In this document: positions 2,856 through 37,585 of the stretch, one piece after another
Layout of the letters: every line of letters starts with the position of its first letter
Position numbering within the stretch: the first letter of the stretch is position 1
IMG/VR virus record: IMGVR_UViG_2675903368_000016
Length of the DNA stretch: 37,585 nt
From: a virus
Lineage: Duplodnaviria; Heunggongvirae; Uroviricota; Caudoviricetes
Strand: one strand, 5' to 3'
Made by a program: the position numbers and the translations under genes
The notes under the pieces: model-generated
What the model was told of the DNA's origin: nothing
The model's database searches: none
What the model saw: the letters and a program-made list of their open reading frames with translations, nothing else

Positions 2856-3074
2856 TCAAAGAGAGAGCGCCACCTGTCCTGATTTCATTGGATGCGGCTG
2901 AACCGGATTTGACTCTTTTGGCGTTGCAATCGAACGAACAAAAGTTTCATGGGTAACAAAAGTATGGCTGCAGTTAATGTTCTGGCACTGGTTGTAACGC
3001 TCTTTGGTCAATGAAGATACCTGAAAACTGCTGCGAGTATGGGCGGCACTTCCACACAGTGGGCAAATCATCAT
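2856..3074 (-). CDS. ogr: Ogr/B-type zinc-finger late-gene activator
   Basis: MMICPLCGSAAHTRSS...ERYNQCQNINCSHTF has the Ogr C-x2-C...C-x4-C pattern. Start moved to the internal Met (about 72 aa); the ORF track's longer start adds 11 residues absent from Ogr proteins. Confidence 0.8.
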   Translation of the reverse strand: MMICPLCGSAAHTRSSFQVSSLTKERYNQCQNINCSHTFVTHETFVRSIATPKESNPVQPHPMKSGQVALSL

Positions 3075-10144: not shown

Positions 10145-10717
10145 TCAGGGGGATTCATTACTCTTATTTGCCGGAAATTTTCTATAAATTGTGGAAACAC
10201 CCACATCAAAAATCAGTGCAATACGCTGTCTTGATTCTCCGGCCTCGAGTAAGCGTCCAATCTGTGCCCACTGTTCGGTGGTCAACTTAGGACGGCGTCC
10301 ACCTACTCTGCCTTTATCACGAGCTGCAGCCAGCCCCGCCCTGGTACGTTCAACTATCAGTTCGCGTTCCATTTCAGCCAGGGCCCCCATGACATGAAAA
10401 AAGAAACGGCCCATTGGGGTGCTGGTATCAATACTGTCAGTCAGGCTTCGGAAATTCACGCCACGCTGACGCAACTCTTCTATCAGCGTAACAAGATGCC
10501 GCATACTGCGCCCCAACCTGTCCAGCTTCCAGACAACCAGAGTGTCTCCTGCCGATAGTGTCCTGAGCAGTTTTTTAAGCCCCGGTCTGTCGGACTTAGT
10601 GCCACTGATTTTGTCCTCAAAAATCCGCTCACATCCCGCGCAGTTCAGTGCATTACGTTGCAAATCTGTGTTCTGGTCATTTGTTGACACGCGTACATAG
10701 CCAATAAGCATGATCAT
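10145..10717 (-). CDS. Serine DNA invertase, Hin/Gin/Pin/Cin family (copy 1)
   Basis: 190-aa ORF M(IM)LIGYVRVSTNDQNTDLQRNAL... with N-terminal catalytic Ser motif and C-terminal HTH; true start may be Met3. Confidence 0.9.
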   Translation of the reverse strand: MIMLIGYVRVSTNDQNTDLQRNALNCAGCERIFEDKISGTKSDRPGLKKLLRTLSAGDTLVVWKLDRLGRSMRHLVTLIEELRQRGVNFRSLTDSIDTSTPMGRFFFHVMGALAEMERELIVERTRAGLAAARDKGRVGGRRPKLTTEQWAQIGRLLEAGESRQRIALIFDVGVSTIYRKFPANKSNESP

Positions 10718-10738
10718 CTCCTTGAATAAAAATCGGGG

Positions 10739-11263
10739 ATGATGCCAGTTAGTCGTAATCGCTGCATTTTCTTATACGTTGGTTTGGGAGAAGGTTCGGC
10801 ATTACCCGTTGGTGTGCCTGTTCCATGGCCTTCAGCCACACCGCCAACAGGCTGGCTGAAATGCAACGGTGCGCCTTTTTCTGCAGAAGAATACCCGGAA
10901 CTGGCAAAGGCTTATCCAACAAATAAATTGCCTGATTTACGCGGTGAATTCATTCGCGGCTGGGATGATGGGCGCGGGGTGGATGCTGGTCGAGATTTGT
11001 TATCATCTCAAGGGGATGCAATAAGAAATATAACTGGAGGATTTAATATCAGACCTGGATCGAGCAGTGCTTTGATTACTTTCGCTGCTGGTGCTCTTAA
11101 AGTAGCATCAAGAGTTCAAAGTGCTTATGTCACAAACACTTCAGCCACTGACAAAATTGCTGAAGGTATAGACTTCGATGCCAGTGCTGCTCCTGGAGTT
11201 GTAACTGCATCTGAAAACCGTCCAAGAAATATCGCGTTTAACTACATTGTAAGGGCAGCATGA
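10739..11263 (+). CDS. Tail-fibre variable C-terminal module A (silent alternative receptor-binding domain)
   Basis: 174-aa ORF; after an 18-aa leader (MMPVSRNRCIFLYVGLGE) read from the invertase upstream region it continues ...PVPWPSATPPTGWLKCNGAPFSAEEYPELAKAYP, a tail-collar-type motif. Confidence 0.7.
   Translation: MMPVSRNRCIFLYVGLGEGSALPVGVPVPWPSATPPTGWLKCNGAPFSAEEYPELAKAYPTNKLPDLRGEFIRGWDDGRGVDAGRDLLSSQGDAIRNITGGFNIRPGSSSALITFAAGALKVASRVQSAYVTNTSATDKIAEGIDFDASAAPGVVTASENRPRNIAFNYIVRAA
10767..10792 (+). other. 26-bp invertase crossover site Z (hix/gix-like)
   Basis: TTTTCTTATACG-TT-GGTTTGGGAGAA, an imperfect dyad around a central TT; exact reverse complement of site Y. Confidence 0.7.
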
Positions 11264-11865
11264 TGAATAAAGTTGTATTAAATAGTGAGCTTATTGCTAC
11301 AAAGGCGGGGAGTGTTACCGTTTATAATTATGATGGCGAAACACGGGAATATATTGCCACATCAACTGAACATCTTGCTGTCGGTGTCGGTATCCCGGTA
11401 TGTTCTTGTTTAGATGCTCCGAGCTCAAACAAAGCTGGTTATGCAATCTGCCGTTCGGCAGATTTAAACTCATGGGAATATGTGCCAGACCATCGCGGTG
11501 AAACGGTCTATAGCACCGAAACAGGAGAATCAAAAGAAATCACCGCTCTGGGTGATTACCCTGAAAATACAACCACTATCGCCCCGTTAACGCCATATGA
11601 TAAATGGAATGGTGAAAAATGGGTGGCGGATACTGAGGCACAGCATAGCGCCGCAGTAGAAGCGGCAGAAGCACAGCGCCAGTCACTGATTGATGCTGCA
11701 ATGGCTTCCATTGGTCTGATTCAGCTGAAATTACAGGCCGGACGGAATCTGACGCAGGCAGAAACCGCCAGACTTAACGCTGCGCTGGATTACATTGACG
11801 CGGTGACGGCAACAGATACCAGCACGGCGCCGGATGTCATCTGGCCTGAACTGCCGGAGGCGTAG
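11260..11865 (+). CDS. Tail-fibre assembly chaperone, module A
   Basis: 201-aa ORF immediately after module A; conserved chaperone-type C-terminal end (...APDVIWPELPEA). Confidence 0.7.
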   Translation: MMNKVVLNSELIATKAGSVTVYNYDGETREYIATSTEHLAVGVGIPVCSCLDAPSSNKAGYAICRSADLNSWEYVPDHRGETVYSTETGESKEITALGDYPENTTTIAPLTPYDKWNGEKWVADTEAQHSAAVEAAEAQRQSLIDAAMASIGLIQLKLQAGRNLTQAETARLNAALDYIDAVTATDTSTAPDVIWPELPEA

Positions 11866-12277
11866 GCCATTCAATATCTGGCGCACTGGAAGTATCGACC
11901 AGTTCCAGTGCGTCCAGATAATCCAGCCACAAATTATATTGCGCCAGTTCCTCACCTTTCAGGCGACCAATCGCCGCTTTACCAGGCCATTGCTTACTGT
12001 GTGTGTATTCGTTGACCTGATTAATCAATTGCTGCTTTTCCAGTTCGGCTGCGGCAATTTGTTCCTCATGAGTTGGCGGTGGAATATCAATCCATGCAGG
12101 CATTCCGTCGATGACACCTCTGTATTTTCCTTCTGGTGCTTCCTTCATAAATTCGGCGGCAACAGTGTCGTCAATTTCGATTCCATCACCGGGCCATTCG
12201 CCGGATTCCTGATAAGCGATTTTAAGCTCCACAGGGAAAAACGCATTTTTATCGGCACTGAAAATATATTTCTGCAT
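11837..12277 (-). CDS. Tail-fibre assembly chaperone, module B (full length)
   Basis: 146-aa ORF MQKYIFSADKNAFFPVELKIAY... convergent with chaperone A; C-terminus ...APDIEWPTPPAVQAR. Confidence 0.7.
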   Translation of the reverse strand: MQKYIFSADKNAFFPVELKIAYQESGEWPGDGIEIDDTVAAEFMKEAPEGKYRGVIDGMPAWIDIPPPTHEEQIAAAELEKQQLINQVNEYTHSKQWPGKAAIGRLKGEELAQYNLWLDYLDALELVDTSSAPDIEWPTPPAVQAR

Positions 12278-12279
12278 TT

Positions 12280-12678
12280 CTACCGTCCTATCGAAATATA
12301 ACTGAATCTGTATTGCTGTGAGATATCACTGGTTGCCACACGCCACGCTGAATTACTGATATGTTCAAAATTTACAGACAAAACCTGCGGGGCAGGATTC
12401 GACGGGGCTGACTGAACGGCATCAGACATAACACTGACTGAAACCATCGGCTGATTAGGGAATGGTATAGGGAAGTGTCCACTGATAAAGCGGGTCGTGT
12501 TTCCTGAAAAAGTGCCAAACTGAACAATATATCCACCTGGTAGCCTGAACCATCCCGAACCAGAAGCGAATGCTCCCATATCCGGTATCTGATTATCTCC
12601 TGTGCCCACATCCCTTTTCGCCGCTTCTCCCAAACCAACGTATAAGAAAATGCAGCGATTACGACTAACTGGCATCAT
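12280..12678 (-). CDS. Tail-fibre variable C-terminal module B, stand-alone duplicate copy
   Basis: 132-aa ORF with the same 18-aa leader, then a sequence identical to the C-terminal 114 aa of H. Confidence 0.6.
   Translation of the reverse strand: MMPVSRNRCIFLYVGLGEAAKRDVGTGDNQIPDMGAFASGSGWFRLPGGYIVQFGTFSGNTTRFISGHFPIPFPNQPMVSVSVMSDAVQSAPSNPAPQVLSVNFEHISNSAWRVATSDISQQYRFSYISIGR
12625..12650 (-). other. 26-bp invertase crossover site Y (hybrid site)
   Basis: Plus strand TTCTCCCAAACC-AA-CGTATAAGAAAA; left half identical to site X, right half identical to reverse-complement Z, with identity switching at the central AA. Confidence 0.7.
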
Positions 12679-12699
12679 CCCCGATTTTTATTCAAGGAG

Positions 12700-13443
12700 A
12701 TGATCATGCTTATTGGCTATGTACGCGTGTCAACAAATGACCAGAACACAGATTTGCAACGTAATGCACTGAACTGCGCGGGATGTGAGCGGATTTTTGA
12801 GGACAAAATCAGTGGCACTAAGTCCGACAGACCGGGGCTTAAAAAACTGCTCAGGACACTATCGGCAGGAGACACTCTGGTTGTCTGGAAGCTGGACAGG
12901 TTGGGGCGCAGTATGCGGCATCTTGTTACGCTGATAGAAGAGTTGCGTCAGCGTGGCGTGAATTTCCGAAGCCTGACTGACAGTATTGATACCAGCACCC
13001 CAATGGGCCGTTTCTTTTTTCATGTCATGGGGGCCCTGGCTGAAATGGAACGCGAACTGATAGTTGAACGTACCAGGGCGGGGCTGGCTGCAGCTCGTGA
13101 TAAAGGCAGAGTAGGTGGACGCCGTCCTAAGTTGACCACCGAACAGTGGGCACAGATTGGACGCTTACTCGAGGCCGGAGAATCAAGACAGCGTATTGCA
13201 CTGATTTTTGATGTGGGTGTTTCCACAATTTATAGAAAATTTCCGGCAAATAAGAGTAATGAAGTATTTTCCTTCTGGTGCTTCCTTCATAAATTCGGCG
13301 GCAACAGTGTCGTCAATTTCGATTCCATCACCGGGCCATTCGCCGGATTCCTGATAAGCGATTTTAAGCTCCACAGGGAAAAACGCATTTTTATCGGCAC
13401 TGAAAATATATTTCTGCATTTCTACCGTCCTATCGAAATATAA
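12700..13443 (+). CDS. Serine DNA invertase copy 2, C-terminally fused to 59 aa read antisense through a truncated chaperone gene
   Basis: First 188 aa identical to copy 1 (nucleotide identity 12625-13263 = reverse complement of 10154-10792); diverges after ...FPANKSNE. Confidence 0.8.
   Translation: MIMLIGYVRVSTNDQNTDLQRNALNCAGCERIFEDKISGTKSDRPGLKKLLRTLSAGDTLVVWKLDRLGRSMRHLVTLIEELRQRGVNFRSLTDSIDTSTPMGRFFFHVMGALAEMERELIVERTRAGLAAARDKGRVGGRRPKLTTEQWAQIGRLLEAGESRQRIALIFDVGVSTIYRKFPANKSNEVFSFWCFLHKFGGNSVVNFDSITGPFAGFLISDFKLHREKRIFIGTENIFLHFYRPIEI
13264..13419 (-). pseudogene. Truncated tail-fibre assembly chaperone B (first 52 codons only)
   Basis: Sequence identical to the 5' end of the 11837-12277 gene, then abruptly joined to the 3' end of invertase copy 2. 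Confidence 0.7.
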
Positions 13444-14828
13444 CTGAATCTGTATTGCTGTGAGATATCACTGGTTGCCACACGCCACGCTGAATTACTG
13501 ATATGTTCAAAATTTACAGACAAAACCTGCGGGGCAGGATTCGACGGGGCTGACTGAACGGCATCAGACATAACACTGACTGAAACCATCGGCTGATTAG
13601 GGAATGGTATAGGGAAGTGTCCACTGATAAAGCGGGTCGTGTTTCCTGAAAAAGTGCCAAACTGAACAATATATCCACCTGGTAGCCTGAACCATCCCGA
13701 ACCAGAAGCGAATGCTCCCATATCCGGTATCTGATTATCTCCTGTGCCCACATCCCTTTTCGCCGCTTCTCCCAAACCAAGGTATGAGAGAAGACCAGCG
13801 ACATCCTTTCCACTCAAATTAGTCAGCGTATTGTCCAGCGGTTGTTTACCTGCCAGCGCATTAAGCATTGTCGTGGCAAAGTTCGGATCATTCCCCAGTG
13901 CCGCCGCCAGTTCGTTCAGTGTATCCAGTGCAGCAGGTGCAGACCCCACCATTGCTGCAATTGCCGATTTCACAAAAGCCGTGGTGGCAATCTGTGTATT
14001 GTTAACCGACTGTGCGGCAGTGGGGGCTGTTGGCGTTCCGGTGAGTGCCGGACTTGACAGCGGCGCTTTCAGTGCCAGCGCATTGTTAATGGTGGTACTG
14101 AATTTCGGATCATTGTTAATGGCTGCGGCTAATTCTTTCAGCGTGTCCAGCGTGGCTGGCGCACCATTAATCAGGGCCGTCAGTGCCGCCTGAACAAACG
14201 CGGTGGTCGCAACCTGCGTGGTGTTATTCCCTGCCGCTGGCGTTGGCGCTTTTGGTGTCCCGGTAAACGTCGGACTTTCTTTCTGTGCATACTGTGAATG
14301 CGGGTCCGGTGCGGCAAGATGTTTTGCCATCTGATCATCCACGTACACCTTCAGCTCCAGTACCTTGTCATCCACATACTTGCGGGTTGCCAGCACTACG
14401 GCAGGGTCGATTTTCAGGGTGATATTGTCCGTGCTGCTGGTAATCAGCACCATGCGCACGGTCTGGGTACGCCCGCTGCCTTCAGCCAGTTGCGGTTTAT
14501 AGCTTTCCGGGCAGTTCCCCACGGCAATCAATGCCCCTGACTCATCAAACAGGCCCACTTCACGTATCCACCAACCGCCCTCGTTTTCAGGGATCACCTG
14601 TTCAGCAATAATCTGGCTGCTGTTCTGCGGGTCGATATAGAGCATATTCAGCGCAGCCCGGCGTTTCTCATTTACCAGTGCCGTCTGCTTTGCGTCCGGC
14701 GTCGGCAATGCTCCGCCGCCATCGCCCACCGCCATATGGGTAATTTTTAGCGGCACACCGAGCGCGGCGGCGCTGGCAAGTTTCGCCGCGCCAATATCCG
14801 TCAGCAGGGTATAAAATTTTGTGCTCAT
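13422..14828 (-). CDS. H: Tail fibre protein gpH, currently carrying variable module B
   Basis: 468-aa ORF; constant N-terminal part with repeated ...TTAFV...APA.LDTL.ELAAA... motifs, then LGLGE junction and module B C-terminus. Confidence 0.85.
   Translation of the reverse strand: MSTKFYTLLTDIGAAKLASAAALGVPLKITHMAVGDGGGALPTPDAKQTALVNEKRRAALNMLYIDPQNSSQIIAEQVIPENEGGWWIREVGLFDESGALIAVGNCPESYKPQLAEGSGRTQTVRMVLITSSTDNITLKIDPAVVLATRKYVDDKVLELKVYVDDQMAKHLAAPDPHSQYAQKESPTFTGTPKAPTPAAGNNTTQVATTAFVQAALTALINGAPATLDTLKELAAAINNDPKFSTTINNALALKAPLSSPALTGTPTAPTAAQSVNNTQIATTAFVKSAIAAMVGSAPAALDTLNELAAALGNDPNFATTMLNALAGKQPLDNTLTNLSGKDVAGLLSYLGLGEAAKRDVGTGDNQIPDMGAFASGSGWFRLPGGYIVQFGTFSGNTTRFISGHFPIPFPNQPMVSVSVMSDAVQSAPSNPAPQVLSVNFEHISNSAWRVATSDISQQYRFSYISIGR
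13767..13792 (-). other. 26-bp invertase crossover site X inside H (constant/variable junction)
   Basis: Minus strand TTCTCTCATACC-TT-GGTTTGGGAGAA; half-sites match at 10 of 12 positions; encodes the LGLGE junction. Confidence 0.7.
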
Positions 14829-20565: not shown

Positions 20566-21216
20566 TCAGCGGCTGTCATTGCGCAGTCTGCGCTCCAGCT
20601 GCTGTTTGTCTTTTTTCACGCCACAGCGGGGATCGAGCTGCAACGCATGGTTGAGATGGTTAAGGGCGGAAGCCGGATTGCTTTCACTCAGGACAGCGCC
20701 AATCGCTTTATGCAGACGCGCCCGTGACTGGTCCGGCATATCCAGACCGTCTGTCAGCTCCAGCGTCTGCAGCAACAGATCGGCATCAAAGCCGGTGGCG
20801 GCAAGCATTGCGCTCTGCGCCGCGTCTGCCATTTCCTCTGCCAGCACGGTCTGCACATTGCGGTTACCCAGTGGCATCACCCAGCCATGACGCAGGGCAT
20901 GACATCCGATCTCCAGCGCCCCGGCATAATCTCCGGCATCAATGCGCCACAGCATCACGTACATCAGCACGTCATCCTGTTGAGTGCCTCCGGCAGCCAG
21001 GACGCCCTCTGCCCAGGCGGCGTACTTCGGCAGCAGCTCCACCTTGATTTCCGCTTTTTTGACCGTGGACTGAACACCCTTGAGACGGCGGCGGTCTTCC
21101 GCCAGTTGCAGCAGCATCAGGTCATAGCCCGACGCGTGGAGAACACTGCCGCCCTCGCGGGCGGCCTGTTCAGCCTGAACGCGCAGGCGATGCTGCCGTG
21201 CGGGACTCAGGCTCAT
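20566..21216 (-). CDS. M: Terminase small (endonuclease) subunit gpM
   Basis: 216-aa ORF downstream of N; P2 order O-N-M-L. Confidence 0.75.
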   Translation of the reverse strand: MSLSPARQHRLRVQAEQAAREGGSVLHASGYDLMLLQLAEDRRRLKGVQSTVKKAEIKVELLPKYAAWAEGVLAAGGTQQDDVLMYVMLWRIDAGDYAGALEIGCHALRHGWVMPLGNRNVQTVLAEEMADAAQSAMLAATGFDADLLLQTLELTDGLDMPDQSRARLHKAIGAVLSESNPASALNHLNHALQLDPRCGVKKDKQQLERRLRNDSR

Positions 21217-21219
21217 GGA

Positions 21220-22277
21220 TTACGCTCCGGTTTCTGCTGCGGCGGCGCTGAAGTCGCCAATCTGGATGTTTTCCACAAGTGCGGCACAGCGGTAGTCCTC
21301 AACCACATAGGCTTCGTTAACGGATTCAAAGTTTTCAATCCGGTCACGTTTCGGGTTGTCGATAACTGAACGGCGGCGGGTGTCTTCCTGCCAGTAGATG
21401 GACAGGTTATCCAGACGGGTGATCAGCAGTGCATTCGGCGGGAAGAACGGTGCACGCACGGCCTGCAGGCCACCCATGCGTTTCTGACTGATGATCATAT
21501 CGGCAGCCAGTTTTTCACTGTTTTCCTGCTCTTTGTTAACCAGCGGGAAATACTTGTCAGACAGCAGTTCACGCCCGCAAATCACCACCAGATCGTCATC
21601 GTCCTGGTAGACCACGTCGATAAGCTCATTGACGGCATCCATCACCACGGCGTCCAGGTTGGCATATTCGCCACCTTTACCGACTTTCACCGCGCCCGGT
21701 GTGGTTTCACCGCCCATGGTGGTGCTGCCCATGACGTGATCCGGTGCTCCTCACGGATTTTCTGCAGCCAGCCTTTGTTCACATCCTGCAGCAGCGGGTT
21801 TTCGCTGCGGTTGGAGGTTTTCGCACGCTTCACGCCGTTAAAGCCGATCATGATGCGGTCCAGTGCCTGACGTTTCACGATGGCGTCACGGATACGCACC
21901 TGGAAATCCTGAAACTTCGCCCACAGGTCCAGCTTCGCGTAGGTCAGTACCGTGTCAAAGTTGGTCTGCTCGCATTTGTATTCCACATCGACCATCAGCG
22001 TAGGATCGACAGGTTCACGCTCTTTCGCGGTGGTGTCAGTGGTTCCGGCAATGGTGCTACCAACACCCAACCCCAGCAGCTGACCGGACTGCTCAGTCAC
22101 TGGCGTGACGTTAATCAGCGTCAGGAAAGCGGCGGACTGCTGGATCTGGTCTTCCAGCGTCTGCTGTACAGACGGCTCCACGGTGAACTTGCTGGACAGT
22201 TCTTCAACTGCCACACCGTTCAGACGCGCCAGCTGCTGCAGGTAAGCGTTAAAAGCAAAGCGGGTATTCTTCTTCAT
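21220..22277 (-). pseudogene. N: Major capsid protein gpN, interrupted by a 1-bp frameshift
   Basis: Two overlapping ORFs (21687-22277 and 21220-21732) together span gpN; the frame breaks at ...LQKIREEH|, and adding one C restores ...EEHPDHVMGSTTMGGETTPGAVKVGKGG.... Confidence 0.8.
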
Positions 22278-22293
22278 CAGGTTTTGTGCTCCA

Positions 22294-23127
22294 TCAGCAA
22301 TTGGTCAGAGTGTCAGCGGGGGCGTTACCGCCTGTTGCACGCTGGCGGTAGTCCTGGCGGCTGTCTTCATGACTCAGCTTATTCACCAGTTCGTTAAAGG
22401 CGGTCTGCTGTGCCTGCAGGGCAGTCTCCAGCTCAGACAGACGTTCTTCCTGCTCAGACAGGGATTTTTCGGTGCGTGCGCTCAGGTTTTGCTGCTCAGT
22501 GGCGACCAACTCCACGGCCTTATGCACATCAGAGAACCGGGCATCGTCGGACTGCTCTTTTTTGGTGAACAGTGCCGTGACGCGGGCAAACAGGGACGGC
22601 TTGTCCTCCTGGATTTCTTCCAGTTCGATCACCGTTTCCTCTGCGGCGGTAAAGAGATTGGCGGGATTCTGCTTGCGGTTTGCCAGCGGGTTATGGGCTG
22701 CACTGGCGCTGAATGTCAGCATTTCAGTGCCCAGACTGGCAGGGTCATCAGTGGCAGCCAGGCCGACCAAGTAGGCTTTGCCCGTATCAGCAAACTTCGG
22801 ACTGACTTCCATAGATGTGAATAATTTCTGGCCTTTTTTCACCAGTTCCACCAGGGATTCCGTTGGCTCAACGTCGGCATACAGCGCCATCTTGCCTGCC
22901 AACGGACCTTCCGTGATTTCTTCAGCAAACAGCGCCGTCACCTTGCCGTAGCGGTTAAAGGTGCTGTCCGGCAGATAAGACTTGATGTGCTCAAGGTTAA
23001 TCAGCGCGGTATACACCGCCGGGTTGTAGCTGGCTGCCATCTGTTCCAGCCATTCACGCTGGATTTCGCGTCCGTCGGTGGTGGCACCTTCCACCCCGAT
23101 GCGAAAACGCTTTGCTTTCACTGTCAT
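22294..23127 (-). CDS. O: Capsid scaffolding protein gpO
   Basis: 277-aa ORF divergent from P; coiled-coil-rich C-terminal part. Confidence 0.8.
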   Translation of the reverse strand: MTVKAKRFRIGVEGATTDGREIQREWLEQMAASYNPAVYTALINLEHIKSYLPDSTFNRYGKVTALFAEEITEGPLAGKMALYADVEPTESLVELVKKGQKLFTSMEVSPKFADTGKAYLVGLAATDDPASLGTEMLTFSASAAHNPLANRKQNPANLFTAAEETVIELEEIQEDKPSLFARVTALFTKKEQSDDARFSDVHKAVELVATEQQNLSARTEKSLSEQEERLSELETALQAQQTAFNELVNKLSHEDSRQDYRQRATGGNAPADTLTNC

Positions 23128-26082: not shown

Positions 26083-26110
26083 AAGTTAGCGAATAAAAAT
26101 CATTAGCATA

Positions 26111-26131
26111 GGCCGCAAACTGAGCGGCCTT
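26111..26131. terminator. Bidirectional hairpin terminator between Q and the convergent accessory operon
   Basis: Stem AGGCCGC / GCGGCCT with loop AAACTGA; T-rich tracts on both sides. Confidence 0.45.
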
Positions 26132-26136
26132 ATTCA

Positions 26137-26406
26137 TTACCAATTTCTTTTTTCGGAGTTTAGCCAATCACCGCATGGATAATATCTTGACGCCCATTCA
26201 CCTTGTAAACGAGCTACAAACAGAATATCGTTACTATCGACCCTGGCTTGGAGTCCGTCACGCAGTTGAGTTGCGGTCAGCGTTGTATCTACTAACCAAA
26301 ATGATTCAAGATATTTACAGTATGTAAATTGCTTTAGATAGTCAAAAACTTCATCGTAGTTTCTTCCCGGAGCCTTCAAGTCATAGGTTATACAATAAAT
26401 AGCCAT
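26137..26406 (-). CDS. Hypothetical 89-aa protein, accessory cassette gene 4
   Basis: ORF MAIYCITYDLKAPGRNYDEVFDYLKQF...; AT-rich; 4-nt gap to the upstream gene; no confident family assignment. Confidence 0.55.
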   Translation of the reverse strand: MAIYCITYDLKAPGRNYDEVFDYLKQFTYCKYLESFWLVDTTLTATQLRDGLQARVDSNDILFVARLQGEWASRYYPCGDWLNSEKRNW

Positions 26407-26409
26407 TCT

Positions 26410-26655
26410 CTAAGCTCCGCATTTTTTATCATTTGGGGAACATCTTAACCTGCGACATTTGCGGCAATACGATTGAGGGATCAGCCGCTCTCCTTCCATA
26501 GTTCTAAAACCAAACACTTCTTCAATTTTGTTCAAATCACCACTTGCAATAACCCCACAGCAGGGGCAGACAGCCTCAATTTGAAATGCCATGTCTATCT
26601 CCATTCCACATGTTGAATGTAGGGTAATACTTCCTTTCAAGCAAAAATGAGACAA
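26410..26655 (-). CDS. Small zinc-ribbon protein, accessory cassette gene 3
   Basis: C-P-C-C-G ... C-R-K-C-R-R...C...C cysteine pattern; probable true start at internal MAFQIEAV (about 60 aa). Confidence 0.5.
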   Translation of the reverse strand: MSHFCLKGSITLHSTCGMEIDMAFQIEAVCPCCGVIASGDLNKIEEVFGFRTMEGERLIPQSYCRKCRRLRCSPNDKKCGA

Positions 26656-26827
26656 GGATCTTGAAACCTAATTTAAACTTGCTTGCGCGCGCTCGTATCC
26701 CCGCCACGCCTGCCCGCTTTATGTAGTAGTTTTCATGCAGGTGCATGATCTACGCGAAAGCCCGCCAGTTCTGGCGGGCCCTAGCAAAAACGATCCTCAA
26801 ACGATCATGCGATCTCATGCAGCATAG

Positions 26828-27559
26828 TCATGCACGATCATTTGACTCAGCATCTGCTGCACGCTTGCTGCGCGAAGATGCACTTTTACTATCAATCTTT
26901 CGACAGTTCTTTCTATCCCTGGCTTCATTTTCTTTAAATTTGTTATATGTCTCAGTATCAAAAAACGAAATTGTTTCAACCTCATCTTTTGGTATGAGCA
27001 CACGGAAATCTTCGATATTAAGCCGAGACATTCCACTTATCACACCACTATCAAGATAATGTTGGTGATAGTTAGTCGTGATACTAATCGTTAGATCATC
27101 TTTATCCCGATATCCGCTTAACATCGGGAGAAGTTCAAGGTGCTCTGAAAGCCCGTTTTCTAACGCCGGACAAGTAACAAGACCAACATAGATTTTGCGA
27201 GACGACAGAGTTGCTATGATCGGAAACTGTCTTGCGGACGCTTCCATGAGTAATGATTCGAAAGCGTTATTACCCACAGCTTTAGCTAAGGCATCCCAGC
27301 GACGATCTCCACGTGATGTGCGTAACTTATTTCCAAAACCTGAAATCGCAGCGAGGACAATTGAAATCATAACCCATGCTATCTGTTTGATTTCATTTAT
27401 TCTTTGAAGTTTGTCTTTCGATGAAGACAACATGCCATTAAAACTGTCAGGTGTTAGATTCAAGGCATTAGCCAGCCAACGAAACCCTCCGCTGACGTTC
27501 AAAATAAAGGTGAAAAAACCGCCAAGGAGAAAAAAAAACGATACCCCAGGCAGCCACAA
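26828..27559 (-). CDS. Membrane protein of unknown function, accessory cassette gene 2 (distal frame)
   Basis: 243-aa ORF with hydrophobic segments (FFFLLGGFFTFIL; IAWVMISIVLAAISGF) and a charged C-terminal domain; no ATG at the reported start. Confidence 0.55.
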   Translation of the reverse strand: MWLPGVSFFFLLGGFFTFILNVSGGFRWLANALNLTPDSFNGMLSSSKDKLQRINEIKQIAWVMISIVLAAISGFGNKLRTSRGDRRWDALAKAVGNNAFESLLMEASARQFPIIATLSSRKIYVGLVTCPALENGLSEHLELLPMLSGYRDKDDLTISITTNYHQHYLDSGVISGMSRLNIEDFRVLIPKDEVETISFFDTETYNKFKENEARDRKNCRKIDSKSASSRSKRAADAESNDRA

Positions 27560-27671
27560 AAAAATAAGCGTCCCAGCCGTTGGAACGCTTATATCGGTAT
27601 CTTGTTGAAAGTGATAGGTTTACATAAATAAAACCACTAACCAAAATCACTGCTAAAAGTAATGTTGCCAT
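27468..27671 (-). CDS. N-terminal transmembrane segment ORF, probably the 5' part of the same membrane-protein gene in another frame
   Basis: 67-aa ORF MATLLLAVILVSGFIYVNL...; its ATG overlaps the stop of the upstream 71-aa gene (TAATG); joins the 243-aa frame at a T7/T9 homopolymer region. Confidence 0.45.
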   Translation of the reverse strand: MATLLLAVILVSGFIYVNLSLSTRYRYKRSNGWDAYFFVAAWGIVFFSPWRFFHLYFERQRRVSLAG

Positions 27672-27886
27672 TATCTGGTTCTATTAGTTTTCTCTTTTAC
27701 AGTGCTCGTTTTGATGCCTTCAAGCTTATCCATCTGTGCCTTGATGGCATCCATTGCTCTTTTGTTAGACAAGTCTACGGACACAAAACCATCTTTACTA
27801 AGATTGAGTTTGTCCTGGTTCTCTTTAAGAACCCTTGCCAGACGTTCAACTGGGTTACCCAGGCTAAATGCGGCGATGCTTGACAT
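27671..27886 (-). CDS. Hypothetical 71-aa protein, accessory cassette gene 1
   Basis: ORF MSSIAAFSLGNPVERLARVLKENQDKLNL...; first gene of the leftward AT-rich operon. Confidence 0.5.
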   Translation of the reverse strand: MSSIAAFSLGNPVERLARVLKENQDKLNLSKDGFVSVDLSNKRAMDAIKAQMDKLEGIKTSTVKEKTNRTR

Positions 27887-28156
27887 AACTCCCCCTTTTC
27901 ACATGGCGCGGAAGTCTACACTCCGACGCCTACAACCTCAACAGATTATCTTTAAAATTTAGACAACAATATCATCTGTTGATTGCGTTACTTAAACTTA
28001 AGTTCAATGCGCTCGATCATGCAAGCTGTTTCTTAAGAACTGTTAATTTCCTGGCATATATAGTGGTTAAGGTAACAAATTGACACTAACGCCTCGCATA
28101 GCTCGTTGTTCAACCTTGCTGACGCCAGAAGCAAGTTCAGACGCCAGCAACGTTTC

Positions 28157-34773: not shown

Positions 34774-36450
34774 ATGAATTCATTTGCCATCGTTATACTC
34801 TTATTAGCATTTCTCGCCCCTGTTCTAGCTGTAATATTATTTAAACAAAGTAAAAAACACAAAGCGGCTATAGATAACCTGACAGCTAACAACATAGCCC
34901 TTTCTAACCAACTGATTGAAAATCAAGAAAAACTAGCACAGACCGTACGAGAATTATCAGAGCTTGAAGGGCGAGCAGCACCATTGTGGCAATACGAAGA
35001 ATTGCACAGCGCAGTAATGGATGCAGAGAATAAGATAAAAAATGCGGACTCAATAGCCAAGCAAAAAATAGATGAAGCCCAAATTAAGGCGGCTAAAACA
35101 GTAAACGAAGCAAATTATCAAGCTCAGATGACAATAAGCAACGCTAATAGCGAAGCTATAGCAATCACCAAAGACGCTCGCGATGCACGCCTGAAAGCCA
35201 AAGAACGTCTTGATAATGCTAATAATAAAGCAAATGAGCTAATCTCAAATGCTAATGACAATGCAGTAAAAATTATTTCTGATGCAGAAGAAAGAGCAAA
35301 GGAGATTGCTGGTTCAGCATATGAAGCTAAAGAGTTTGCAGAAAAATATGAAGCAGTTGCAAAATCAATGAAAAATAAAATTGAAGGTTATGGTGATGAA
35401 TGGATCATCCCTAACCGTAGTGTACTTGATGAGCTGGCAGAAAATTATGAATTTACAGATGCAGGCAAGGAATTACAAAAAGCCAGAGAGTTAACCAAAT
35501 CATTAATAAAAACTAATAAAGCTGCTTCGTGTGATTATGTTGAGCAAAACAGGCGTAATACTGCCATAAACTTTGTTTTGGATGCCTTCAATGGAAGAGT
35601 TGACAGTATTTTATCAAAAGTCAAACACAACAATTTTGGAAAACTTTCCCAAGAAATAAAAGATGCATTTCAACTAGTAAATTACAATGGCTCTGCCTTT
35701 AGGTCCGCAAAAATAAGTGACATCTATCTTCAGGCAAGACTCAACGAGCTAAAATGGGGTGTAGCAGTTAATGAAATTATGCTCGAAGAAAAAGAAGAGC
35801 AAAGAAGGATTAAAGAACAGCTTCGTGAAGAGGAAAGAGCTCGTAGAGAATATGAAAAAGCGATAAAAGAAGCTGAAAAAGAAGAAAAAGCTATTCAGCA
35901 AGCTATAAATAAAGCAACGAAAGAACTTATGCTTGCAAATGAAGAACAACGCTTAGCTTTAGAGCAAAAAATAGCTGAACTACAGTTAAAATATGAAGAA
36001 GCTGAAGCTAAAAATCAACGAGCTATTTCTATGGCTCAACAAACCAGATCAGGCCACGTCTATATCATTAGTAATATTGGTTCATTTGGCGAAGATGTAT
36101 ATAAAATTGGAATGACACGCCGCCTTGAACCACTTGATCGTGTTCGTGAACTCGGAGATGCTAGTGTTCCTTTTTCGTTCGATGTTCATGCGATGATTTA
36201 TAGTGATGATGCACCATCATTAGAAAACCATCTGCATAAAGTTTTCAACGAAAAGCAGGTCAATAAAATTAACTCACGAAAAGAGTTTTTTAACGTAAAT
36301 TTAAAAGAAATCAAATCAGTTATTGAAGACATGAACATCAACGCCCACTGGACAATGTTTGCAGAGGCGAAAGAATATAGAGAGTCTCTAGCTATTGAGC
36401 AGGAGCGCAAAGCAGCCACTTCCGCCAACGATGAACTACATGTTGCTTAG
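34774..36450 (+). CDS. Membrane-anchored coiled-coil protein with C-terminal GIY-YIG-like (T5orf172-type) domain; lysogeny-operon moron
   Basis: 558 aa: N-terminal TM helix, long coiled coil rich in A/E/K/N, C-terminal GHVYIISN...YKIGMTRRLEPLDRVRELG...; AT-rich; 20 nt after the cI stop. Confidence 0.7.
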   Translation: MNSFAIVILLLAFLAPVLAVILFKQSKKHKAAIDNLTANNIALSNQLIENQEKLAQTVRELSELEGRAAPLWQYEELHSAVMDAENKIKNADSIAKQKIDEAQIKAAKTVNEANYQAQMTISNANSEAIAITKDARDARLKAKERLDNANNKANELISNANDNAVKIISDAEERAKEIAGSAYEAKEFAEKYEAVAKSMKNKIEGYGDEWIIPNRSVLDELAENYEFTDAGKELQKARELTKSLIKTNKAASCDYVEQNRRNTAINFVLDAFNGRVDSILSKVKHNNFGKLSQEIKDAFQLVNYNGSAFRSAKISDIYLQARLNELKWGVAVNEIMLEEKEEQRRIKEQLREEERARREYEKAIKEAEKEEKAIQQAINKATKELMLANEEQRLALEQKIAELQLKYEEAEAKNQRAISMAQQTRSGHVYIISNIGSFGEDVYKIGMTRRLEPLDRVRELGDASVPFSFDVHAMIYSDDAPSLENHLHKVFNEKQVNKINSRKEFFNVNLKEIKSVIEDMNINAHWTMFAEAKEYRESLAIEQERKAATSANDELHVA

Positions 36451-36532: not shown

Positions 36533-37585
36533 ATGGCAGTACGAAAACTAACCACAGGGAAATGGCTTTGCGAATGTTACCCCGCCGGACGAAGTGGGCG
36601 TCGTGTGCGTAAACAATTCGCCACCAAAGGCGAAGCACTGGCTTTTGAGCGCCACACGATGGAAGAAACCGAAGCAAAGCCCTGGCTGGGTGAATCAGTG
36701 GATCGTCGAACACTGAAAGACGTGGTTGAGCTATGGTTCAAACTACATGGTAAATCTCTGACAGCTGGGCAGCATGTCTATGACAAATTGCTGTTGATGG
36801 TTGACGCTCTGGGCAATCCTCTTGCAACCGATCTCACCTCTAAAATGTTTGCCCACTATCGAGATAAACGCCTGACAGGCGAGATCTACTTCAGCGAGAA
36901 ATGGAAGAAAGGAGCAAGCCCGGTCACCATTAACCTGGAGCAAAGCTATCTAAGTAGTGTTTTTAGCGAACTATCCCGTCTGGGCGAATGGTCGTATCCG
37001 AACCCACTGGAGAACATGCGAAAATTCACCATCGCAGAAAAAGAGATGGCATGGCTTACCCATGAGCAGATTGTTGAATTGCTGGCTGATTGCAAACGTC
37101 AGGACCCAATTCTGGCACTGGTAGTTAAGATATGCTTAAGCACAGGCGCACGCTGGCGTGAAGCCGTAAATCTTACCCGCTCACAGGTGACCAAATACCG
37201 AATTACCTTTGTCAGAACGAAGGGGAAGAAAAACAGAAGCATCCCTATCAGTAAAGAGCTTTACGAAGAGATCATGGCGCTTGATGGGTTCAATTTCTTC
37301 ACAGACTGCTATTTTCAATTTTTATCCGTGATGGAAAAAACGTCTATCGTGCTCCCTCGCGGTCAACTCACACACGTTCTGCGCCATACGTTTGCGGCGC
37401 ACTTCATGATGTCGGGTGGAAACATTCTGGCCTTACAAAAAATTCTCGGACACCACGATATAAAAATGACTATGCGTTACGCACATCTGGCACCGGATCA
37501 TCTAGAAACGGCGCTCCGTTTCAATCCTCTGGCAACGCTGCCAAGTGGCGACAAAGTGGCGGCAGCGGTTGGCATTACCCCGTAA
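36533..37585 (+). CDS. int: Tyrosine integrase (P2/186 family)
   Basis: 350-aa ORF with ...LSTGARWREA...LRHTFAAHFMMSGGNILALQKILGHHDIKMTMRYAHL... (conserved R...H-x-x-R...Y residues); stop is the last codon of the window. Confidence 0.9.
   Translation: MAVRKLTTGKWLCECYPAGRSGRRVRKQFATKGEALAFERHTMEETEAKPWLGESVDRRTLKDVVELWFKLHGKSLTAGQHVYDKLLLMVDALGNPLATDLTSKMFAHYRDKRLTGEIYFSEKWKKGASPVTINLEQSYLSSVFSELSRLGEWSYPNPLENMRKFTIAEKEMAWLTHEQIVELLADCKRQDPILALVVKICLSTGARWREAVNLTRSQVTKYRITFVRTKGKKNRSIPISKELYEEIMALDGFNFFTDCYFQFLSVMEKTSIVLPRGQLTHVLRHTFAAHFMMSGGNILALQKILGHHDIKMTMRYAHLAPDHLETALRFNPLATLPSGDKVAAAVGITP

What the first reader, a model, noticed from the sequence alone, without database searches (positions are those of the whole stretch)
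21220..22277. Major capsid gene N split by a single-base deletion
The capsid ORF breaks at ...LQKIREEH; inserting one C (CACCGG to CACCCGG near 21745-21750) restores a continuous capsid-length reading frame. Every other structural gene is intact. Either the prophage cannot make capsids (recent inactivation, possibly a satellite-helper-like state) or this is a sequencing error.
Basis: seen in the sequence. Interest (0 to 1): 0.5.

Follow-up and report, generated by a model that had tools for sequence, protein, structure and literature searches.

The report
Frameshifted capsid gene, P2-like prophage
The major capsid gene of a P2-like prophage in an E. coli chromosome is cut in two by a genuine, inherited one-base deletion, so the prophage most likely cannot build heads; this is ordinary prophage decay.

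Summary
Gene N (minus strand, 22277..21220) of a P2/186-like prophage inserted next to ybjL is split into a 196-aa and a 170-aa ORF. Intact relatives have exactly one more base. The missing base is the T of codon 177 (GAT, Asp), between 21748 and 21747. It is not a C in CACCGG, and the site is not a homopolymer.

It is very unlikely to be a random sequencing error. The same two fragments occur on 12 public contigs, from NCBI draft assemblies and Logan re-assemblies. These fall into three haplotypes that differ by SNPs but all share the deletion. None of 884 matching records of complete E. coli genomes carries it.

The break bisects the single HK97-fold domain, and no frameshifting signal is present. 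All other late genes are full length, so inactivation is recent. Two further changes exist:
- An accessory gene carries a second private frameshift, T8 to T9 at 27530..27538.
- The tail-fibre/invertase segment carries an unexplained duplication.

Nothing supports a satellite-like state. The head module other than N, the tail (see the fibre caveat) and the lysis modules are intact, and the element carries a PD-Lambda-1 defence gene, so a use as tailocin or defence island is conceivable but untested. Verdict: real, ordinary, low interest.

The parts
21220..22277 (-). Gene N (P2-family major capsid protein), now a pseudogene. It is 1058 nt, against 1059 nt (352 codons plus stop) in intact relatives.
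21687..22277 (-). N-terminal ORF of 196 aa: 176 native residues (by homology with P2 gpN: N-arm, E-loop, spine helix and helix alpha4 of the P-domain), then 20 out-of-frame residues and TGA.
   Evidence: fold landmarks from PMC7552001
21220..21732 (-). C-terminal ORF of 170 aa. It starts at the internal Met183, which corresponds to P2 gpN Met184, the first residues of the 'sir loop' at the entry to the A-domain. It has no well-placed ribosome-binding site: GAGGAG lies 14 nt upstream.
21747..21748 (-). Site of the 1-nt deletion: the T of codon 177 (GAT) is lost between these two bases. There is no homopolymer or repeat context.
21716..21716 (-). Private substitution ACG to ATG (Thr to Met), 31 nt downstream of the deletion. 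It is absent from all 884 matching records of complete E. coli genomes.
22294..23127 (-). Gene O (GPO capsid scaffold/protease), intact at 277 aa, immediately upstream of N.
20566..21216 (-). Gene M (terminase small/endonuclease subunit), intact at 216 aa, immediately downstream of N.

Best explanation
A genuine, clonally inherited single-nucleotide deletion (the T of codon 177, GAT) has inactivated the major capsid gene N of a P2/186-like (Peduoviridae) prophage integrated beside ybjL in an E. coli chromosome. Translation from the N start gives 176 native residues plus 20 aberrant ones, then stops. The A-domain and the C-terminal P-domain strands of the HK97 fold are lost. Procapsids therefore cannot be assembled, and the prophage cannot produce infectious particles by itself, nor supply heads to a P4-type satellite. 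All other late genes are still full length, so the event is recent: an early step of prophage decay. Shown here: the lesion, its exact position, its presence in several isolates, its absence from relatives, and the integrity of the other genes. Inferred: loss of capsid production, from the established role of gpN.
For: - One base is missing compared with intact relatives. The two halves lie in adjacent frames at about 98.9% identity each.
- The restored protein matches PF05125 end to end at 505.7 bits and P2 gpN of PDB 7jw1 over residues 1-350 at E 4e-136.
- The Pfam domain is cut at profile positions 171|179 of 327.
- The exact 196-aa and 170-aa fragments are in NCBI under at least 4 accessions each and lie on 12 contigs. 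These include GCA_001284645.2, GCA_001283225.2 and a Logan assembly of ERR178203.
- Those contigs align to the window without gaps and differ only by 0-2 SNPs, giving three haplotypes that all carry the deletion.
- The best of 884 matching records (879 complete E. coli genomes) still shows both private differences, so none listed carries the deletion.
- The context is not a homopolymer.
- gpN is the sole shell protein of P2 procapsids (PMC7552001).
Against: - No read-level data and no sequence from a second platform were available. All the assemblies seen may come from one sequencing project and one platform.
- No experiment shows absence of particles.
- A C-terminal ORF starting at a native Met exists, so production of both halves cannot be strictly excluded.
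Confidence: 0.85

Rival explanations
1. Sequencing or assembly error: the real genome has an intact N gene.
For: - Single-base indels are the classic artefact.
- The same window also has a homopolymer-length difference, T9 against T8, in an accessory gene.
- It has a suspicious duplication at the invertible tail-fibre segment.
- All carriers may stem from one project.
Against: - The deletion is not in a homopolymer.
- It recurs in three SNP-distinct haplotypes, and in assemblies made by different pipelines, both NCBI drafts and Logan.
- The rest of the 33-kb prophage shows no other frame breaks in 40-odd genes. That is not the pattern of an error-prone assembly.
Confidence: 0.05
2. The gene is still functional, by one of two routes. 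A -1 ribosomal frameshift could restore full-length gpN. Alternatively the two halves could be made separately and assemble into a split HK97 fold.
For: - The two ORFs overlap by 46 nt.
- The C-terminal ORF starts at a native Met, at a boundary between P-domain helix alpha4 and the sir loop/A-domain.
- The deletion creates a GAGGAG motif upstream.
Against: - The only zone where a shift could rescue is 64 nt long. It holds no X_XXY_YYZ heptamer and no run of 4 or more identical bases.
- GAGGAG lies 14 nt from the ATG, too far for a normal ribosome-binding site.
- All relatives encode one uninterrupted ORF, so the layout is not conserved.
- The P-domain of the HK97 fold is built from segments of both halves. 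No split capsid protein of this family is known to me (own knowledge).
Confidence: 0.03
3. The capsid-dead prophage is retained for host benefit. It could act as a source of headless contractile tails (tailocin-like killing particles) released by its intact lysis cassette. It could also, or instead, act as a carrier of the PD-Lambda-1 defence gene and of immunity. This reading adds to the best explanation and does not exclude it.
For: - Tail, baseplate, sheath, tube, tape-measure, lysis and regulatory genes (ogr, CI, cox-like) are all full length.
- A 558-aa PD-Lambda-1 protein sits between CI and int.
- The lesion has persisted through at least the divergence of three haplotypes.
Against: - The haplotypes differ by only 0-2 SNPs in up to 19 kb (11.6-19 kb compared), so persistence is short and shows no selection.
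- Head genes O, P, Q, M and L are all still intact, unlike evolved tailocins.
- One sister isolate has a stop-loss in tail gene S.
- In the window the tail-fibre assembly gene is separated from H by a rearrangement.
Confidence: 0.1

Closest known systems
Bacteriophage P2 gene N (gpN, major capsid protein; PDB 7jw1) and classical P2 N-defective mutants
   Same: - The repaired protein aligns with P2 gpN over residues 1-350 (E 4e-136).
- The gene order O-N-M is the same.
- The protein has the same HK97 fold with N-arm, E-loop, P- and A-domains.
- A truncation before the A-domain should behave like a null N allele.
   Different: - This is a natural frameshift allele fixed in a lysogen lineage, not a laboratory amber mutant.
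- The phage belongs to the Wadgaonvirus-like/186-like branch, with a CI-type repressor plus CII-like and DinI-like genes. It is not P2 itself.
Defective (cryptic) prophages of enterobacteria arising by point inactivation
   Same: - An otherwise complete prophage carries an inactivating indel in an essential morphogenetic gene.
- A second indel lies in an accessory gene.
- The element is vertically inherited within a clone.
   Different: This is a very early stage. There are no deletions and no IS insertions, and about 40 other genes are intact.
R-type tailocins (P2-tail-derived bacteriocins)
   Same: The tail and lysis modules are of P2 type and intact, while the head cannot be made.
   Different: Tailocin loci have lost the whole head, packaging, replication and integration modules. 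Here only N is broken and everything else of the phage remains.
P4-type satellites / helper-dependent elements
   Same: Like a satellite, the element would need capsid protein supplied by another P2-like phage in order to be packaged.
   Different: - The window contains none of the satellite-type functions known to me (capsid size redirection, helper derepression, own primase). The genes identified are the standard P2/186 set plus cargo, though no targeted search for satellite genes was run (own knowledge for the expected genes).
- Its size is that of a full phage, about 33 kb.
- This prophage could not even serve as a helper for P4, which needs gpN (PMC7552001).

Membership tests
P2-family major capsid protein (Pfam PF05125, HK97 fold) | Significant match to the family profile over its whole length | tested here: met
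   The repaired protein scores 505.7 bits over profile positions 1-327. The fragments cover 1-171 and 179-327.
P2-family major capsid protein (Pfam PF05125, HK97 fold) | Homology to an experimentally solved gpN | tested here: met
   PDB 7jw1 chain A matches at E 4e-136 over query residues 1-350.
P2-family major capsid protein (Pfam PF05125, HK97 fold) | One uninterrupted ORF of about 352 codons | tested here: not met
   The gene is split at codon 177 by a 1-nt deletion. It is a pseudogene of the family, not a functional member.
P2-family major capsid protein (Pfam PF05125, HK97 fold) | Position between scaffold gene O and terminase gene M in the late operon | tested here: met
   O lies at 22294..23127, N at 21220..22277 and M at 20566..21216, all on the minus strand.
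Defective prophage (point-inactivated essential gene) | An essential morphogenetic gene is disrupted relative to intact close relatives | tested here: met
   Among 884 matching records of complete E. coli genomes the best identity is 97.6% (80 of 82 alignment columns: the gap plus the SNP), so none has fewer than these two differences. The window lacks one base.
Defective prophage (point-inactivated essential gene) | The lesion is in the organism, not in the assembly | tested here: met
   There are 12 contigs, three SNP-distinct haplotypes and two kinds of assembly. No second sequencing platform was checked.
Defective prophage (point-inactivated essential gene) | No infectious particles on induction | not testable with these tools
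   This needs induction, plaque assay and electron microscopy.
Programmed ribosomal frameshift (as in the P2 E/E' tail chaperone) | Slippery heptamer or homopolymer in the overlap zone | tested here: not met
   The 64-nt permissible zone contains none.
Programmed ribosomal frameshift (as in the P2 E/E' tail chaperone) | The two-frame layout is conserved among relatives | tested here: not met
   Relatives have a single ORF.
Phage satellite (P4-like) | Lacks own virion genes and carries helper-exploitation genes | tested here: not met
   The full set of P2-type head, tail, lysis and replication genes is present. The window contains no satellite-type genes.
R-type tailocin locus | Tail and lysis genes without head, packaging, replication or integration modules | tested here: not met
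   O, P, Q, M, L, A and int are all present and full length.

The most novel reading that the evidence does not exclude
The head-less prophage is not mere debris but an incipient domesticated element. On SOS induction it would lyse a fraction of cells and release P2-type contractile tails that kill competitors. Its PD-Lambda-1 gene and repressor would meanwhile protect the clone. In addition the 196-aa N-terminal capsid fragment might poison capsid assembly of superinfecting P2-like phages and P4-type satellites.
Probability: 0.08. Interest if true: 0.45.

Novelty: already known. Interest (0 to 1): 0.1.

Why it matters
The practical value is small. The prophage should be scored as defective rather than intact in prophage censuses. 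Prediction tools would call it intact, because all modules are present. It also cannot act as a helper for P4-like satellites. It is a clean, datable example of the first step of prophage decay, a point lesion in an essential head gene with everything else still intact. That could be useful for anyone studying how tailocins or cryptic prophages begin. Nothing here challenges current knowledge.

Tried and rejected
- An exact-pattern scan for the deleted allele in genome contigs (one genome per species) and in metagenome contigs found nothing.
- The same scan in viral contigs found one contig. It proved to be the same assembly as NCBI CYEB01000058, with equal length and the same SNP, so it is not independent evidence.
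- I tried to tie the carriers to a published collection. A full-text search for the accessions gave no paper. My recollection that ERR178xxx runs belong to the ETEC-362 collection could not be confirmed for ERR178203. The supplement of PMC8085198 lists other ERR178 runs but not this one. The pathotype is therefore left open.
- I looked for frameshift-rescue signals and found none.
- I looked for the odd invertase-duplication junction elsewhere and found no match in viral contigs or genome contigs. Whether it is real stays unresolved.
- I did not run structure prediction. A solved homologue and its published domain map already place the break.

Full report
**What the window is.** The window is a stretch of E. 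coli chromosome. ybjM and ybjL lie at the left end. A P2-type prophage runs from ogr (2859..3074) to the integrase gene, which ends exactly at the right end (36533..37585). About 700 complete E. coli genomes hold a collinear relative covering at least 80% of the first 25 kb. Many of the best matches also have ybjL under the match. The closest named phage is Escherichia phage 500465-1 (Peduoviridae, Wadgaonvirus). A group of Klebsiella P2-like phages is about equally close. The early region is 186-like, with a CI-type repressor, a CII-like gene and a DinI-like gene.

**The observation.** Gene N lies on the minus strand, with its ATG at 22277 and its stop at 21222..21220. It reads as two overlapping ORFs in different frames: 22277..21687 (196 aa) and 21732..21220 (170 aa).

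In annotated relatives the gene is one ORF of 1059 nt, encoding 352 aa. The 1201-nt query around N always matched 1202 nt in relatives. An alignment with three intact relatives shows one missing base. Relatives read CGT GAG GAT GCA CCG GAT CAC GTC ATG; the window reads CGTGAGGA-GCACCGGATCACGTCATG.

The lost base is the T of codon 177 (Asp), between 21748 and 21747. Re-inserting it gives a 352-aa protein. That protein matches Pfam PF05125 end to end at 505.7 bits. It also matches P2 gpN of PDB 7jw1 over residues 1-350 at E 4e-136.

It produces EEHP where the family has EDAP, so it is a frame fix and not the historical event.

**Real or artefact.** The site is not a homopolymer or repeat.

The exact 196-aa and 170-aa products are deposited in NCBI under at least four accessions each. 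They are found on 12 contigs, including GCA_001284645.2 (CYEP01000010, 204 kb), GCA_001283225.2 (CYEB01000058) and a Logan re-assembly of run ERR178203. These contigs align to the window without a single gap. They differ by 0, 1 or 2 SNPs at different positions: 25239, and 28831 plus 17323. That gives three haplotypes, all carrying the deletion. The IMG/VR contig found by pattern search is the same assembly as CYEB01000058 and adds nothing.

An 81-nt query across the lesion hit 884 records from 879 complete E. coli genomes. The best identity was 97.6%, or 80 of 82 alignment columns. The listed hits each span 82 nt in the record. So none has the deletion, and none has the neighbouring private ACG to ATG change at 21716.

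I conclude that the lesion is a true mutation inherited within a narrow clone. What I could not do is inspect reads or a second platform. I also could not confirm which strain collection the isolates belong to.

**Consequence.** Translation from the N start gives 176 native residues and 20 out-of-frame residues, then TGA at 21689..21687. The second ORF starts at Met183, which aligns with Met184 of P2 gpN.

In the P2/P4 procapsid structure, residues 183-224 form the 'sir loop'. It runs from the end of P-domain helix alpha4 into the A-domain (PMC7552001). The first fragment therefore keeps the N-arm, E-loop and spine helix. It lacks the whole A-domain and the C-terminal P-domain strands. The Pfam domain is cut at profile positions 171|179 of 327.

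gpN is the protein from which P2 procapsids are built, together with scaffold gpO and portal gpQ (PMC7552001). The inference is that the prophage makes no heads and hence no infectious particles. It also cannot help a P4-type satellite, which needs gpN.

**Could the gene be rescued?** A -1 shift would have to occur between two stop codons. One is the TGA in the target frame at 21753..21751. The other is the 0-frame stop at 21689..21687. Those 64 nt contain no X_XXY_YYZ heptamer and no run of four or more identical bases.

The deletion creates GAGGAG, but it lies 14 nt upstream of the internal ATG, which is poorly spaced for initiation. Relatives do not share the two-ORF layout. Recoding or a working split capsid is therefore improbable.

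**The rest of the prophage.** I ran tblastn with 45 annotated proteins of an intact relative, E. coli E10. Every late gene gave a single full-length hit: D, U, T, E, E', FII, FI, H, I, J, W, V, S, R, lysA, lysB, lysC, K, Y, X, L, M, O, P and Q. So did A, Dam, ogr, the cox-like gene and int. Only N was split. Two other things turned up.

- **A second frameshift.** A gene of family phrog_3630 is 280 aa in E. coli 210221272. In the window it is split into 27671..27468 (67 aa) and 27559..26828 (243 aa). The cause is a T9 run at 27530..27538 where about 50 close relatives have T8. The sister assemblies share this too, since their alignments to the window are gapless.
- **A rearranged fibre region.** The invertible tail-fibre region holds an exact inverted second copy of the invertase gene, with 12624..13263 matching 10154..10793. 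It is flanked by a 526-nt direct repeat, 13264..13789 matching 12122..12647. As a result the intact fibre gene H is followed by only a 52-codon stub of the assembly gene, and the full copy lies 1.1 kb further on. Sister assembly CYEP01000010 has the ordinary layout, and the Logan contig ends inside the repeat. The junction was not found elsewhere. Whether this is real or a scaffolding artefact is open.

**Interpretation.** The best explanation is a recent, genuine frameshift that turned an otherwise complete P2/186-like prophage into a defective one. This is ordinary prophage decay (confidence 0.85).

- **Sequencing error** is now unlikely (0.05).
- **Functional rescue** is unlikely (0.03).
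- **A satellite-like state** is not supported. The element has the full phage gene set and none of the satellite hallmarks. At most it could be packaged if a related phage supplied gpN.
- **Domestication** cannot be excluded. The tail genes (with the fibre caveat above), the lysis genes and the regulators are intact. A PD-Lambda-1 defence gene sits at 34774..36450 (PADLOC E 2e-120). The element could therefore be retained as a source of tail particles and phage defence. There is no positive evidence for this. The haplotypes differ by only 0-2 SNPs. One sister carries a stop-loss in tail gene S. All head genes other than N are still present, unlike evolved tailocin loci.

**Novelty and score.** The gene family, the phage family and the phenomenon are all textbook. 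The fragments are already in public databases, annotated as P2-family capsid protein. The finding is real but ordinary, with interest about 0.1.

Noticed in passing
window 26828..27671 (minus strand); run at 27530..27538: A second private frameshift. An accessory gene of family phrog_3630 (unknown function) is 280 aa in E. coli 210221272. Here it is split into 67-aa and 243-aa ORFs by a T9 run where about 50 close relatives have T8. The sister assemblies share it. The homopolymer context allows either real slippage or a systematic error.
   Followed up: yes
window 10145..13789: The invertible tail-fibre segment is rearranged. There are two identical Hin/Gin-type invertase genes in opposite orientation (10145..10717 on the minus strand; 12700..13443 on the plus strand, the latter fused to 60 extra codons). 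There is also a 526-nt direct repeat of the 3' end of fibre gene H plus the first 52 codons of the fibre-assembly gene. A sister isolate has the normal single-copy layout. The junction at 13263|13264 was not found in other collections. This is either a real duplication-inversion or an assembly artefact.
   Followed up: partly
window 34774..36450 (+): A 558-aa cargo protein lies between the CI repressor and the integrase. It matches the PD-Lambda-1 anti-phage defence family (PADLOC E 2e-120; Pfam DUF4041 plus T5orf172/MUG113). The relative E. coli E10 carries a different AAA ATPase at the same spot, so this is a variable defence hotspot.
   Followed up: partly
window 26100..28100: A low-GC (41-42%) cargo island lies between portal gene Q and the DinI-like gene. 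It has several small ORFs of unknown function (phrog_1090, phrog_19700, phrog_9843). The relative E10 has a DprA-like gene there instead.
   Followed up: partly
window 21716: A private ACG to ATG (Thr to Met) change lies 31 nt downstream of the capsid deletion. It is also absent from all 884 matching records of complete E. coli genomes. Two private changes this close together could be one mutational event.
   Followed up: no
L005 (CYEP01000010), corresponding to window 17323: One sister isolate has a SNP that turns the stop codon of tail-completion gene S into Gly, lengthening S from 148 to 154 aa. It also has a Gly776Ser change in replication gene A.
   Followed up: partly
window 21744..22397 (+): A 217-aa ORF runs antisense to gene N. 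It has no support as a gene and is typical of the opposite strand of GC-rich coding DNA.
   Followed up: no
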